A stretch of 11,692 bases of DNA from Promethearchaeota archaeon (lineage in GTDB: Archaea; Asgardarchaeota; Lokiarchaeia; Sigyniarchaeales; SOKP01). This document shows, in pieces, positions 3,183-5,712 of this stretch. Within the stretch, counting starts at the first letter, position 1. Each line of letters opens with the position of its first letter. The DNA lies in the NCBI GenBank assembly GCA_048938025.1, contig JBHLMP010000073.1, positions 1-11,692 on the forward strand, given 5' to 3'. Both the position numbers and the translations under genes were made by a program. Under the pieces are notes generated by a model. The model did no database searches. It had not been told where the DNA came from and saw nothing but the letters and a program-made list of their open reading frames with translations.

Positions 3183-3716
3183 ATGCAAAGTTCATGGATA
3201 TTTAAAGTAATTGTGGCAGGGGCTGGTGGAGTTGGAAAAACTGCTATGATAACTCGTTATTGTACAGGGAGATTCGAACAGGGGTATAAAATGACTATAG
3301 GTGCTGGTTTTCATACAAAATCTGAAATTCTTGATACAGGAGAGGCTGTTAAAATGCAACTCTGGGACTTTGCAGGTGAAAAACGTTTTCGCGAGCTTTT
3401 GCCTGATTATTGTAAAGGGGCTAGTGGAGCTTTCATATGTTTTGATATAAGCGATTATGATACTTTTAGAGAAATTCCTGAATGGCTTAAGATCATCCGT
3501 CAAAAAGCTGGATTTATACCAATAATTCTTATGGGTATGAAATGGGATCTTCCCAACCATGAAGTCGTTTACGAAGTAGCAAATGATTATGCTGAAAAAG
3601 CTAAATGCAACCAGTGCGTATTTTGTTCTTCGAAAGGAAATATCAATATAACAGATTCTTTTCAAGCGATGGCAAAATGGTTAATTTATTATGCCACTCA
3701 AATAGATAATACATAA
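3183..3716 (+). CDS. Ras-superfamily (Rab-like) small GTPase, Asgard-type
   Basis: G1 GAGGVGKT, G2 YKMTIG, G3 WDFAGE, G4 MKWD (NKxD variant), G5 SSK. Rab-like segments KMQLWD and YCKGASG. No C-terminal CAAX/CC prenylation motif. Confidence 0.92.
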   Translation: MQSSWIFKVIVAGAGGVGKTAMITRYCTGRFEQGYKMTIGAGFHTKSEILDTGEAVKMQLWDFAGEKRFRELLPDYCKGASGAFICFDISDYDTFREIPEWLKIIRQKAGFIPIILMGMKWDLPNHEVVYEVANDYAEKAKCNQCVFCSSKGNINITDSFQAMAKWLIYYATQIDNT

Positions 3717-3807
3717 TATTAAAATACTGATTTTAATCTGGCTTCATTAAATAGTAAAAGCTAAATATTATATTTAATAAAATTATTATAAAATTGTTAT
3801 AAAAAGC

Positions 3808-4002
3808 GCCTCTGTAGCTCAGTTAGGTAGAGCACCGCCTAAACTATGTGTGCCTAAAGCACCCGGCTAAGTAAGCTTGATTTCACAGCTTCTCCGGAAG
3901 TTAACCGGGCGGTCGCATGTTCGAGATTCTGTCTGATGATATCCAGACAGAACGGGTTCCATTCAATGTTCGACCTCCGAGCAGTGGGAAAAGCCAGGGG
4001 CG
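3808..4002 (+). tRNA. tRNA-Asn(GTT) with four introns. Exons 3808-3830, 3858-3868, 3900-3925, 3959-3962, 3993-4002
   Basis: The joined exons give a 74-nt cloverleaf: GCCTCTG TA GCTC AGTTAGGTA GAGC A CCCGG CT-GTT-AA CCGGG CGGTC GCATG TTCGAGC CATGC CAGGGGC G, with discriminator G73. Each intron boundary falls at bulge-helix-bulge cut sites. CCA is not encoded. Confidence 0.9.
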
Positions 4003-4042
4003 CTTTACTTCTCTTTTCAAATAATAATAAAAAAGAGAGAAA
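4003..4042. terminator. Probable bidirectional T-rich terminator between convergent tRNA genes
   Basis: Pyrimidine/T tract after tRNA-Asn on the + strand and an A/G tract that is T-rich on the - strand. Inverted repeat TCTCTTTT (4010-4017) / AAAAGAGA (4031-4038). Confidence 0.4.
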
Positions 4043-4071
4043 TCTAAATCTTAGTATTTAGTTAAGTATAA

Positions 4072-4212
4072 TGCTCCCGCCGGGATTCGAACCCGGGTCG
4101 CGGGGGTTTTCCCTATAGATGAATGAGACAGTTCCATATGAAGGCCCCGTATGCTAAGCCCTTTCCTTCTTGATATTGGAGGGATTGGTTGGCCAGACTA
4201 CACTACGGGAGC
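4072..4212 (-). tRNA. tRNA-Glu (most likely TTC) with two introns: D-loop 21/22 (4188-4155) and anticodon loop (about 4139-4108)
   Basis: The minus strand reads GCTCCCG TA GTGT AGTCTGGCCAA^GCAT A CGGGG CC-TTC-^AC CCCCG CGAC CCGGG TTCGAAT CCCGG CGGGAGC A (75 nt), a typical archaeal Glu body. Intron 1 BHB: GGCC/GGCT helix with bulges AA^C and TA^G. Intron 2 has a TATGGA/TCTATA helix. Exact cut sites and anticodon are less certain than the Glu body. Confidence 0.82.
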
Positions 4213-4456
4213 AATTTTTTTTCTAATTAATTTTTTTTATCCTTATGATAGAGTAATCAAATAAAATTATTCAAAGAATTTGTTAAAGCAAAACTGATGT
4301 ATAATTTTGTAATTATTTTTTAATTTTAAATTTTTTCATAATCTATTTTGGATATTTAGATTTAGTAATTAATTGTCTCTTAAAATAAGTAAATTTCGTA
4401 CGAATTCATTGAAATTTCTAAATTTGATATTTTAGTAAATGTTCTATTGAATCTAA

Positions 4457-4713: not shown

Positions 4714-5712
4714 ATGAGTGTAAGGGATTCTTTAATTAAACATTTAACATCTATTTTACGGGCATCTGAAGGAACAATCTTAGTAGTTCTATGTGATCAA
4801 AATGGTCTATCTATAGCTAAGATTGGCAGGAAAAGTGATATAGATTTAAACCCAAATCAAATCACAAGTTTAGCATCAGCAGCGTTTTCTGCTAGTCAAG
4901 AAAATTGGGAAGATTTGAACATCAAAGATCAAGTTATTTCATTTTCATATTTTGATAAAATTTGTTTGATAACAATAAGAATTAATGAAACTCTACTTAC
5001 AATAGTTCATGATTATCATAAAGAATGGCCATTAGATGCAGACAATCTAGCTAGTTCTATGTATTATTTAAAACAAAAGTTAGGTGATTTTTTTGGGGGT
5101 GGCGGAGAATCTGAAAAAGATATTGAAGAGTTTTGCGATAAAGTTCGAAGTGCTACATATCTTTTCGGGATGGGATCAGAAGTTCCTTTTGCATCATACC
5201 TCCCTGAAAAAATTGATAAATTAGATATTTTAAATTCTATAAGCACTGTTTTGGATTCTATTCAAAATCCTATATTTATCAGATATAGTTTAGTTAACCC
5301 TTCTGGTTTGACTTTAGATGCTCGAGATGTTAGTGGGAAAAATTTACCCGTTTCTGTTGAAGCCTTTTCAGCAAATGCTAACGTCGCATTTCAAAAAATG
5401 AAAGAAGAATCAGAAGGAAGCTCAATTGGTGATCTCTTAAGTTATATAGCAATCGCCGGTCAAGATACTGAAAACTTTTATGGCCTTCTCGCAAGTCCCT
5501 CAGGAAAAATAAATTTTTCAAAATTGGAGGAGACTTCAAATATTCAGGAAATATCTTTCATTGGATTGTTTACATTAACATATGGAGGTATACCTGTTAT
5601 TAGTGAAGCAAGAAATATTATTTTTTCAATATTAGAGATTCTAGGGAAGGACCAAACGACACAGAACTTCATTGAATCTATAAATGTTCTTACTAGTTTT
5701 AAATATGATTAA
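4714..5712 (+). CDS. Roadblock/LC7 (MglB/LAMTOR-like) domain protein, probably two tandem Roadblock domains
   Basis: N-terminal pattern of helix, VVLCDQNGLSIA, ITSLASAAFSASQ...DLNI, then beta strands. A second similar unit follows (LDSIQNPIFIRYSLVNPSGLTLD ... EAFSANANVAFQKMKEE...IGDL) after a linker containing GGGG. Confidence 0.72.
   Translation: MSVRDSLIKHLTSILRASEGTILVVLCDQNGLSIAKIGRKSDIDLNPNQITSLASAAFSASQENWEDLNIKDQVISFSYFDKICLITIRINETLLTIVHDYHKEWPLDADNLASSMYYLKQKLGDFFGGGGESEKDIEEFCDKVRSATYLFGMGSEVPFASYLPEKIDKLDILNSISTVLDSIQNPIFIRYSLVNPSGLTLDARDVSGKNLPVSVEAFSANANVAFQKMKEESEGSSIGDLLSYIAIAGQDTENFYGLLASPSGKINFSKLEETSNIQEISFIGLFTLTYGGIPVISEARNIIFSILEILGKDQTTQNFIESINVLTSFKYD

What the first reader, a model, noticed from the sequence alone, without database searches (positions are those of the whole stretch)
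3808..4002. tRNA-Asn split by four non-canonical introns, with a 4-nt micro-exon
Seen: four introns. At 22/23, 3831-3857 (27 nt; helix AGGT/GCCT, bulges AG^A and AA^A). At 33/34, 3869-3899 (31 nt; CCGG/CCGG, CT^A and AA^G). At 59/60, 3926-3958 (33 nt; TTCG/CGGG, AG^A and TT^C, 9-bp inner helix TTCTGTCTG/CAGACAGAA). At 63/64, 3963-3992 (30 nt; TTCC/GGAA, AT^T and AA^G). Cutting after the 2nd nt of each 3-nt bulge gives a fully paired 74-nt cloverleaf; 121 of 195 nt are intron, and exon 4 is only CCAT. None is at the canonical 37/38 site. Known: multi-intron archaeal tRNAs are described mainly from Thermoproteales, to my recollection with up to three introns, and need broad-specificity EndA types. 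Inference: four introns and a site in the 3' strand of the T stem may be undescribed, and standard tRNA finders would probably miss this gene.
Basis: partly seen in the sequence, partly recalled or inferred. Interest (0 to 1): 0.92.

Follow-up and report, generated by a model that had tools for sequence, protein, structure and literature searches.

The report
Four-intron tRNA-Asn gene, Asgard archaeon
This is the genome's only detectable asparagine tRNA gene, cut into five pieces (one only 4 bases long) by four short introns; the structure is real, but heavily interrupted tRNA genes of this kind have recently been described in Asgard archaea.

Summary
Removing 3831-3857, 3869-3899, 3926-3958 and 3963-3992 leaves 74 nt that ARAGORN folds as tRNA-Asn(GUU). 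ARAGORN and the Rfam tRNA model both miss the raw locus.

The junctions are supported by comparison, not only by motif-fitting. The same syntenic gene in 44 congeneric genomes has 0 to 4 introns. Two copies have no intron and score 66.5 and 64.9 bits as tRNA. Sister genome G063 has an uninterrupted T arm identical to the predicted join of exons 3, 4 and 5.

All four introns sit in canonical-class bulge-helix-bulge (BHB) motifs, against 0.84% of random boundaries. No second Asn gene was found. The genome encodes two EndA paralogues, one catalytic-like and one lacking the catalytic His, plus RtcB.

The novelty claim does not hold. Asgard tRNA genes with "up to five" intervening sequences, many in the T arm, are in an October 2026 preprint. 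I file this as a new member of a known kind.

Points I did not see described: the BHB of intron 4 is built partly from the end of intron 3, which implies intron 4 is removed first, and the locus gets no Rfam tRNA-model match. No RNA data were available, so splicing itself is inferred.

The parts
3808..3830 (+). Exon 1: tRNA positions 1-22 (acceptor 5' strand, U8 A9, D-stem 5' strand, D loop, G22).
   Evidence: It aligns base for base with intron-less orthologues L008 and L020.
3831..3857 (+). Intron 1 (27 nt) at 22/23, class HBh': central helix AGGT/GCCT, bulges AGA and AAA, inner helix of 4 bp. Its first 10 nt are an imperfect copy of exon 2.
   Evidence: for the BHB and for the exon-2 copy. 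Homologous introns at the same site occur in G043, G056, G063, G052, G014, G016, G054 and G057.
3858..3868 (+). Exon 2: positions 23-33 (D-stem 3' strand, A26, anticodon-stem 5' strand, C32, U33).
3869..3899 (+). Intron 2 (31 nt) at 33/34, directly before the anticodon, class HBh': CCGG/CCGG, bulges CTA and AAG. The inner helix is 2 bp, one mismatch, then 5 bp.
   Evidence: This BHB conformer is within 0.2 kcal/mol of the predicted minimum-energy (MFE) fold of the primary transcript. A homologous intron occurs in 15 other loci.
3900..3925 (+). Exon 3: positions 34-59 (anticodon GUU, anticodon-stem 3' strand, variable loop, T-stem 5' strand, T loop up to G59).
   Evidence: It is the only 26-nt match in the genome.
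3926..3958 (+). Intron 3 (33 nt) at 59/60 in the T loop, class hBHBh': TTCG/CGGG, bulges AGA and TTC, 9-bp inner helix. The outer helix is 3 bp, rising to 5 bp once intron 4 is removed.
   Evidence: The junction is fixed by G063 (L107), whose uninterrupted T arm equals the predicted join.
3959..3962 (+). Exon 4, the 4-nt micro-exon CCAT: positions 60-63 (last T-loop base plus the first three bases of the T-stem 3' strand).
   Evidence: Some congeners have only the 59/60 intron and some only the 63/64 intron; G043, G056 and G022 have both.
3963..3992 (+). Intron 4 (30 nt) at 63/64, inside the T-stem 3' strand, class hBHBh' in the primary transcript: TTCC/GGAA, bulges ATT and AAG. The TT of the central helix and the GG of the outer helix belong to intron 3.
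   Evidence: Homologous 30-nt introns occur in G006, G009, G017 and G065 (67-80% identity, z 4.9-7.2).
3993..4002 (+). Exon 5: positions 64-73 (end of the T stem, acceptor 3' strand, discriminator G73). CCA is not encoded; the next bases are CTTTAC.

Best explanation
The locus is the functional, single-copy tRNA-Asn(GUU) gene of a low-GC Asgard archaeon. It is transcribed as a precursor of about 195 nt containing four protein-spliced (BHB) introns at 22/23, 33/34, 59/60 and 63/64. Each intron folds with its flanking sequence into a bulge-helix-bulge motif. The host splicing endonuclease cuts after the second base of each 3-nt bulge. This enzyme is probably an (alpha-beta)2 heterotetramer whose catalytic subunit keeps the Lys/Arg of the crenarchaeal specificity loop. 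RtcB then joins the exons, and CCA is added afterwards. Removal is probably ordered in the T arm. The BHB of intron 4 borrows four bases from the 3' end of intron 3 and overlaps the BHB of intron 3, so the two motifs cannot form together. Intron 4 should therefore be removed first, after which the BHB of intron 3 becomes the predicted ground state. Shown here: the sequence anatomy, the comparative support for the junctions, and the presence of the enzymes. Inferred: transcription, cleavage, ligation and the order of removal.
For: 1. The in-silico joined 74 nt is an ARAGORN tRNA-Asn(gtt) with U8, A14, G18G19, U33, a T loop reading TTCGAGC, G53-C61 and G73.
2. In 45 orthologous loci from 44 congeneric genomes the exons are almost invariant, while intron content varies: 0 introns in 2 loci, 1 in 22, 2 in 9, 3 in 9 and 4 in 3.
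3. Intron-less L008 and L020 score 66.5 and 64.9 bits with Rfam tRNA. By my reading of the alignment, L008 differs from the predicted product at three positions (6, 59, 67). Positions 6 and 67 are a compensatory U-A to C-G change in the acceptor stem.
4. G063, sister to the four-intron clade on the neighbour-gene tree (support 100/98), has an uninterrupted 3' portion identical to the predicted join of exons 3, 4 and 5.
5. The locus is syntenic: the Ras-like GTPase gene lies upstream in 41 of 45 loci.
6. All 4 introns are in canonical BHB classes, against 0.84% of random boundaries. Among the seven equivalent placements of intron 1, only 22/23 gives a canonical motif.
7. No other Asn gene was found. 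ARAGORN made 32 calls and none is Asn(gtt); its single 'Asn(att)' call lies in AT-rich sequence. blastn-short of the exons hits only this locus. Three other tRNA-like loci that I read by eye are Gly, Ile and Val.
8. The enzymes are present. There are two EndA paralogues, each with the N and C domains. The C66 copy matches the A. pernix catalytic subunit 3p1z_B at E 2.4e-35, with the KPR aligned to K44-P45-R46 and with Tyr, His and Lys aligned. In the C33 copy, Ser aligns where the M. kandleri catalytic part has His. RtcB scores 566 bits.
9. Order of removal. After intron 3 is removed, the central helix of intron 4 drops from 4 of 4 to 2 of 4 pairs. After intron 4 is removed, the outer helix of intron 3 grows from 3 to 5 bp. 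In constrained folds of the primary transcript, the BHB-4 conformer costs +1.4 kcal/mol and BHB-3 costs +3.1. After intron 4 is removed, BHB-3 is the minimum-energy fold (0.0). After intron 3 is removed, the BHB-4 register costs +4.2.
10. The TTCC/GGAA arrangement recurs in G043 and G056.
11. The DNA is real. Exact pieces 3816-3921 (runs X2, X3) and 3896-4098 (run X1) occur in public contigs. G012, G043 and G056 carry the same four-intron gene at 94-98% identity.
Against: There is no RNA evidence at all: no listed run holding the stretch is on record as RNA, so transcription, cleavage sites, ligation and order are all inferred. Introns 1 and 2 lack the outer helix (class HBh'). The BHB-1 conformer is 5.1 kcal/mol above the minimum-energy fold, because the start of the intron can complete the D stem instead. 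The minimum-energy fold of the primary transcript shows the intron 4 region in a continuous helix, not the bulged register. RNAfold's minimum-energy structure of the joined 74 nt is not the cloverleaf. The assembly is 96.7% complete with 5.1% contamination, so an unassembled second Asn gene cannot be fully excluded. Enforced non-standard pairs cannot be imposed in the constrained folds, so the +4.2 and +7.7 values are approximate. In G043 position 59 is U, so the intron 4 helix would still have 3 of 4 pairs after intron 3 is removed; a strict order is therefore not a property of the whole clade.
Confidence: 0.88

Rival explanations
1. The locus is a decaying pseudogene or relic, and the working tRNA-Asn is encoded elsewhere in an unassembled part of the genome.
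For: The assembly has 88 contigs and is 96.7% complete. No RNA data exist. Standard finders do not call the gene.
Against: The exons are conserved almost base for base across 45 loci while the introns diverge, and there is a compensatory change at positions 6 and 67. All four junctions have canonical BHB motifs. Nearly all congeners show a single Asn locus in the same synteny; only G057 shows two. No other exon-like hit exists in the genome. Three further genomes keep the same four-intron gene intact.
Confidence: 0.04
2. It is a real four-intron gene, but one or more cut sites differ from those proposed. For example, intron 3 could be cut at 58/59, giving U59 as in most congeners, or intron 1 could be cut anywhere from 22/23 to 28/29.
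For: Intron 1 and exon 2 both begin with AGCACC, so seven placements give the same product. A cut at 58/59 would give the T-loop sequence that most congeners have. In many congeners the T-loop intron can be placed at 57/58 or 59/60 with different BHB classes.
Against: Only the proposed placements give canonical BHB motifs. Shift -1 for intron 3 has fewer than 3 of 4 central pairs, and shifts +1 to +6 for intron 1 are 'none' or 'relaxed'. Sister genome G063 has G59 in an uninterrupted T loop, as the 59/60 cut predicts.
Confidence: 0.06
3. The locus is an assembly artefact, for example a chimera of strains or a collapsed repeat, that creates an apparently interrupted gene.
For: In the near-identical genome G012 the gene is split over two contig ends. 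Many related strains coexist in the sediment runs.
Against: Contigs from separate runs reproduce 3816-3921 and 3896-4098 without a single difference. G043 and G056 carry the whole 195-nt gene on single contigs at 97% and 94% identity.
Confidence: 0.01

Closest known systems
[quoted passage not shown] 2024, PMC11291895; Goswami et al. preprint 10.64898/2026.10.13.758758)
   Same: Asgard host, several non-canonical BHB introns per gene, D-arm and T-arm sites, two EndA paralogues, under-detection by standard tools, and patchy presence among close relatives. The preprint reports up to five intervening sequences in one gene.
   Different: The published focus is on Atabeyarchaeia and on Freyr-/Jordiarchaeaceae. 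The nearest named records here are labelled Promethearchaeia, Promethearchaeota or Hodarchaeota, and I could not tell whether this genus is in their panels. Their census only inspects genes that tRNAscan-SE detects, whereas this locus gets no Rfam tRNA-model match even at E up to 10. In the text I read there is no mention of micro-exons, overlapping BHBs or nested introns (term searches).
Multi-intron tRNA genes of Thermoproteales (Sugahara et al. 2008, as summarised in PMC4033280 and PMC4090602)
   Same: BHB introns at many non-canonical positions, (alpha-beta)2 EndA with a specificity loop, and relaxed motifs (HBh', hBH).
   Different: The maximum reported there is three introns per gene. 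Thermoproteales introns form families shared between different tRNAs, consistent with transposition. The preprint finds almost none of that in Asgard, and I did not test it here.
Ordered BHB processing of multi-intron pre-tRNAs in the red alga Cyanidioschyzon merolae (Soma et al. 2013, PMC3728597)
   Same: Several BHB introns per tRNA, including D-stem and T-loop sites. The order of removal was shown experimentally and correlates with BHB stability.
   Different: That is a eukaryotic nuclear system with at most three introns. The order there was demonstrated by RT-PCR, whereas here it is only inferred, and it rests on shared nucleotides between two adjacent BHB motifs.

Membership tests
Archaeal BHB (EndA-spliced) tRNA intron | [quoted passage not shown] | tested here: met
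   4 of 4 introns qualify (HBh', HBh', hBHBh', hBHBh'). The null rate is 0.84%.
Archaeal BHB (EndA-spliced) tRNA intron | Removal of the intron restores a canonical cloverleaf tRNA. | tested here: met
   (ARAGORN calls Asn-gtt). By my reading of the alignment, the product differs at 3 positions from intron-less orthologue L008, which scores 66.5 bits as tRNA.
Archaeal BHB (EndA-spliced) tRNA intron | The host encodes a splicing endonuclease able to cut non-canonical sites, and an RNA ligase. | tested here: met
   an alpha-like and a beta-like EndA paralogue, KPR aligned with the specificity-loop K44/R46, and RtcB. Substrate range was not measured.
Archaeal BHB (EndA-spliced) tRNA intron | Cleavage and ligation at the predicted sites in vivo or in vitro. 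| not testable with these tools
   No run on record as RNA holds the stretch.
tRNA-Asn | Anticodon GUU in a 7-nt loop with U33. The discriminator G73 as an Asn identity element is recalled, not taken from a call. | tested here: met
   anticodon gtt and 3'-terminal G after a 7-bp acceptor stem.
Split or permuted tRNA gene | Exons on separate loci, or in permuted order. | tested here: not met
   All five exons are colinear on one strand within 195 nt.
Group I / group II (self-splicing) intron | A large structured ribozyme core. | tested here: not met
   The introns are 27-33 nt, and no Rfam intron family matches in 3750-4260 at E up to 10.

The most novel reading that the evidence does not exclude
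This locus and its congeners may record how BHB introns arise and depend on one another. First, intron 1 begins with a conserved 10-11-nt copy of the exon that follows it, and the related D-loop introns of congeners end with a copy of the preceding exon. These would be footprints of intron birth by short local duplication, a route not tested in the literature I read. Alternatively, the copy could act as a decoy that holds the anticodon-stem 3' strand so that the BHB of intron 2 can form; consistent with that, intron 1 never occurs without intron 2. Second, adjacent introns share nucleotides between their BHB motifs, and in congeners one intron lies inside another. tRNA maturation would then follow a hard-wired order, in a gene that current census methods may not see.
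Probability: 0.2. Interest if true: 0.8.

Novelty: new member of a known kind. Interest (0 to 1): 0.5.

Why it matters
The gene is essential, because it is the only tRNA-Asn detected. It reaches function only after eight cuts and four ligations, one of which captures a 4-nt exon.

It is a concrete example of the blind spot the 2026 preprint admits, namely genes too disrupted to be detected. This locus gets no Rfam tRNA-model match at all.

Within a single genus the same syntenic gene ranges from 0 to 4 introns, or 5 if the nested intron is counted. Sister species differ by up to three introns. That makes it a compact natural system for studying intron gain and loss, and a ready substrate set for testing Asgard EndA specificity and the order of splicing.

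The existence of Asgard tRNA genes with four or more introns is no longer new.

Tried and rejected
1. RNA evidence. The look-up of sequencing runs listed 20 holders and none is on record as RNA, so expression could not be examined. Read laying used DNA contigs only. Parts of the stretch without cover in some runs are not interpreted.

2. Tandem duplication reaching into intron 2 as the origin of intron 1. I aligned the remainder of intron 1 to the 5' part of intron 2 in 9 lineages. The z-scores were -2.0 to +0.9, so this is not supported. Only the 10-11-nt copy of exon 2 is robust.

3. Decoy hypothesis. The presence of intron 1 lowers the predicted cost of the BHB-2 conformer by only 1.3 kcal/mol (0.2 against 1.5). 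The partner bases do not vary, so no covariation test is possible. I keep this only as a lead.

4. Homology of intron 3 to the T-loop introns of more distant congeners. It is not significant outside its own clade (z -0.2 to 3.2), so gain and divergence cannot be told apart.

5. Gain versus loss. A single neighbour-gene tree of 525 columns has 11 of 31 inner branches open, which is too weak to count events.

6. Whole-genome intron census. I ran only a T-arm-anchored scan. It gave 25 genes of 72-182 nt, of which 15 are 96 nt or longer. Genes with interrupted T arms, such as Asn itself, are missed by design.

7. ARAGORN's 'tRNA-Asn(att)' on C15 lies in AT-rich sequence and I reject it as a false call.

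8. My combined constraint for BHB-3 and BHB-4 was overwritten where the two motifs overlap, so that output is disregarded.

9. G024 (L133) lacked the seed used and was not analysed. G012 was left out of the count because its gene is split over two contigs.

10. Literature. The search for 'tRNA, intron, Lokiarchae, bulge-helix-bulge' found 3 papers, none on multi-intron tRNAs. The 'nested intron' search found nothing relevant. These are full-text searches of the held library only. Supplementary tables of PMC11291895 and of the preprint were closed and may list four-intron genes, 63/64 sites or this genus.

Full report
**What is in the sequence**

Cutting out 3831-3857, 3869-3899, 3926-3958 and 3963-3992 leaves exons of 23, 11, 26, 4 and 10 nt. 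ARAGORN folds the joined 74 nt as tRNA-Asn(gtt) with all four stems paired.

With the 9-nt D loop, the sites are 22/23, 33/34, 59/60 and 63/64 in standard numbering. None is the canonical 37/38.

The raw locus is not detected by standard tools:
- ARAGORN with intron search finds nothing in 3780-4030 and only tRNA-Leu in the whole window.
- The Rfam tRNA model finds only tRNA-Leu at gathering threshold.
- Even with permissive filters and E up to 10 on 3750-4260, it reports the neighbouring two-intron tRNA at 39 bits and nothing for the Asn locus.

**Is it more than chance?**

I scored each boundary with the published rule: four exon bases upstream of the 5' bulge pair with four intron bases upstream of the 3' bulge, the bulges are 3 nt, and flanking helices are at least 2 bp. 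This is the definition in section 4.8 of the preprint, seen.

| Intron | Class | Central helix | Flanking helices |
|---|---|---|---|
| 1 | HBh' | AGGT/GCCT | inner 4 bp |
| 2 | HBh' | CCGG/CCGG | inner 2 bp, mismatch, 5 bp |
| 3 | hBHBh' | TTCG/CGGG | outer 3 bp, inner 9 bp |
| 4 | hBHBh' | TTCC/GGAA | outer 2 bp, inner 2 bp |

Canonical classes occur at 0.84% of 200,000 random boundaries of these lengths in the window, and at 48 of 8,265 possible boundaries inside the locus.

**Comparative evidence**

The genome has 3.52 Mb in 88 contigs, 29.3% GC, and is 96.7% complete. It belongs to a genus with at least 54 species genomes held. A BLAST of the locus matched 46 of the 54, counting the window's own genome. 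It matched none of the 16 genomes from other families of the same order that were drawn.

I aligned the joined exons to each locus, allowing long gaps, and tabulated 45 loci from 44 genomes. G012 was left out because its gene is split over two contigs, and G024 was not analysed. The intron counts are:

| Introns | Loci | Genomes |
|---|---|---|
| 0 | 2 | G007, G008 |
| 1 | 22 | |
| 2 | 9 | |
| 3 | 9 | |
| 4 | 3 | G022, G043, G056 |

G012 carries the same four introns as the window, spread over two contig ends.

- The two intron-less genes score 66.5 and 64.9 bits as Rfam tRNA.
- By my reading of the alignment, L008 differs from the window's predicted product at positions 6, 59 and 67. Positions 6 and 67 change together (U-A to C-G) across the acceptor stem.
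- G063 has introns 1 and 2 only. Its uninterrupted 3' part equals the predicted join of exons 3, 4 and 5, including G59. On a tree of the neighbouring gene, G063 is sister to the four-intron clade with support 100/98.
- The locus is syntenic. A Ras-like GTPase gene lies upstream in 41 of 45 loci, and a tRNA-Glu gene lies downstream in many.
- Introns 1, 2 and 4 are recognisably homologous to introns at the same sites in more distant congeners (z 2.2-7.2). Intron 3 is not, outside its own clade.

**Is the DNA real, and is the gene needed?**

Contigs of public runs from different studies reproduce 3816-3921 (runs X2, X3) and 3896-4098 (run X1) without a difference. One of these runs may be the sample the window came from. 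G043 and G056 carry the whole gene on single contigs at 97% and 94% identity.

No second Asn gene was found:
- ARAGORN's 32 genome calls include no Asn(gtt), and its 'Asn(att)' call lies in AT-rich sequence.
- Short-word BLAST of the exons hits only this locus.
- Three other tRNA-like loci that I read by eye are Gly, Ile and Val.

**Machinery**

Two EndA paralogues are encoded, each with the N- and C-terminal domains. The 201-aa copy on C66 matches the catalytic subunit of the Aeropyrum pernix heterotetramer (3p1z_B, E 2.4e-35). By my count of the alignment, its KPR aligns with K44-P45-R46. K44 and R46 are the two conserved basic residues of the loop shown to give broad specificity, with K44 the RNA-recognition site (PMC3241643; abstract and passages). 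Tyr, His and Lys also align. That these three form the catalytic triad is recalled, not taken from a call.

The 200-aa copy on C33 has Ser where the Methanopyrus kandleri catalytic part has His, as expected of a structural subunit. RtcB is present at 566 bits. This fits the two-paralogue architecture the preprint reports for 44 of 60 Asgard genomes.

**How it probably works**

The BHB of intron 2 is essentially in the predicted ground state of the primary transcript (+0.2 kcal/mol). BHB-4 costs +1.4, BHB-3 +3.1 and BHB-1 +5.1.

The two T-arm motifs overlap. Bases 3953-3959 are the 3' half of the central helix and the bulge for intron 3, while 3955-3960 are the outer and central helix for intron 4. 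The two motifs therefore cannot form at the same time.

- If intron 3 goes first, the central helix of intron 4 falls to 2 of 4 pairs (class 'none'), and its register costs +4.2 to +7.7.
- If intron 4 goes first, the outer helix of intron 3 becomes the full 5-bp T stem, and its BHB is the minimum-energy fold.

I therefore infer that intron 4 is removed before intron 3. An ordered pathway has an experimental precedent in Cyanidioschyzon merolae (PMC3728597). This step is inference. In G043 position 59 is U, which would leave 3 of 4 pairs, so the dependence is not absolute in the clade.

**Against my reading**

There are no RNA data. Two motifs lack the outer helix. The minimum-energy fold does not show BHB-1 or the bulged register of BHB-4. 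RNAfold does not return the cloverleaf for the joined sequence. The assembly is a draft.

**Comparison with what is known**

Since then, Valentin-Alvarado et al. 2024 reported that 92-95% of tRNA genes in three Asgard genomes have introns and that over half have several. The October 2026 preprint by Goswami et al. reports 2.2 intervening sequences per gene in three families and 'up to five in a single gene'. It also reports frequent T-arm and D-arm sites, patchy gains, and two EndA paralogues. Four introns and T-arm sites in Asgard are therefore in print as a preprint.

In the text I could read, I did not find:
- micro-exons, overlapping BHB motifs, nested introns or local duplication (term searches);
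- this lineage. The nearest named records are labelled Promethearchaeia, Promethearchaeota or Hodarchaeota, and the terms Lokiarchae, Hodarchae and Promethearchae are absent from the preprint text.

The preprint notes that its census cannot see genes that tRNAscan-SE misses. Supplements were closed, so any of these points may be covered there.

**Verdict**

This is a new member of a known kind, with some possibly undescribed details. Interest is 0.5.

Noticed in passing
window 4072-4212 (-): This is a second interrupted tRNA gene, tRNA-Glu (anticodon UUC as I read it), with two introns: about 35 nt in the D loop and 32 nt in the anticodon loop at 36/37 or 37/38. ARAGORN miscalls it Ser(act) with a single 58-nt intron. 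Rfam finds it only with permissive filters, at 39 bits. Congeners carry it with one to two introns. The anticodon loop appears to read C at position 33; I did not check this further.
   Followed up: partly
L126, L116, L115, L114, L108 and L007 (congeners G042, G045, G046, G068, G052, G022), 63/64 site of tRNA-Asn: The 60-nt intron at 63/64 has no BHB at its own ends in 4 of the 6 loci (G042, G045, G046, G068). In the other two, the shift search returned other placements. In 5 of the 6 loci it resolves as an inner 30-nt strict hBHBh' intron inside an outer 30-nt intron that is homologous to the window's intron 4. The sixth locus, L007, gave no hit in its primary context. This looks like an intron within an intron, and G022 would then have five introns.
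   Followed up: partly
window 3831-3840 compared with 3858-3868; also L104, L106, L107, L108, L003, L004, L110, L111: Intron 1 starts with an imperfect copy of the exon that follows it, matching 5-9 of 10 bases ungapped in 9 lineages and 9 of 10 in G063 and G052. The null frequency for 9 of 10 is 0.0001. The part of the copy outside the BHB inner helix is also conserved. In the minimum-energy fold it pairs with the anticodon-stem 3' strand and variable region. Intron 1 never occurs without intron 2 in the 10 genomes that have it.
   Followed up: partly
D-loop introns of congeners (for example L114, L007, L014, L128, L132, L136): Introns placed at about 19/20 resemble the 22/23 intron: both have a shared ccgc element and a ggtgtgc tail. 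Their 3' ends copy the preceding exon, matching 3-7 of 10 bases. This could be one intron lineage that has shifted by three bases.
   Followed up: no
neighbour-gene tree of 34 genomes: Intron content changes between sister species. G008 has none and G046 has three (support 97/86). G011 has the T-loop intron and G017 has the 63/64 intron. G061 has two introns and G013 has one. G057 has two Asn loci with different intron sets.
   Followed up: partly
G000 whole genome; for example C48:20107-20288: Rfam tRNA finds only 25 tRNA genes in the genome. Of 25 genes anchored on an intact T arm, 15 are 96-182 nt long. The 182-nt gene on C48 looks like a three-intron tRNA by eye, and ARAGORN does not call it.
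   Followed up: partly
G012:C73 end and C72 start (L137, L002): In the 98%-identical genome G012, the four-intron gene sits at a contig break with overlapping ends. This may reflect strain variation at the locus.
   Followed up: no
window 3183-3716 (+) and 4714-5712 (+): The window encodes a Ras-family small GTPase (E 5e-37) and a protein with a weak match to MAPKK1_Int, which I recall as the roadblock/LC7-like fold (E 2.8e-4, below the Pfam cut-off). Both are typical Asgard 'eukaryotic signature' genes, and they flank the tRNA cluster.
   Followed up: no
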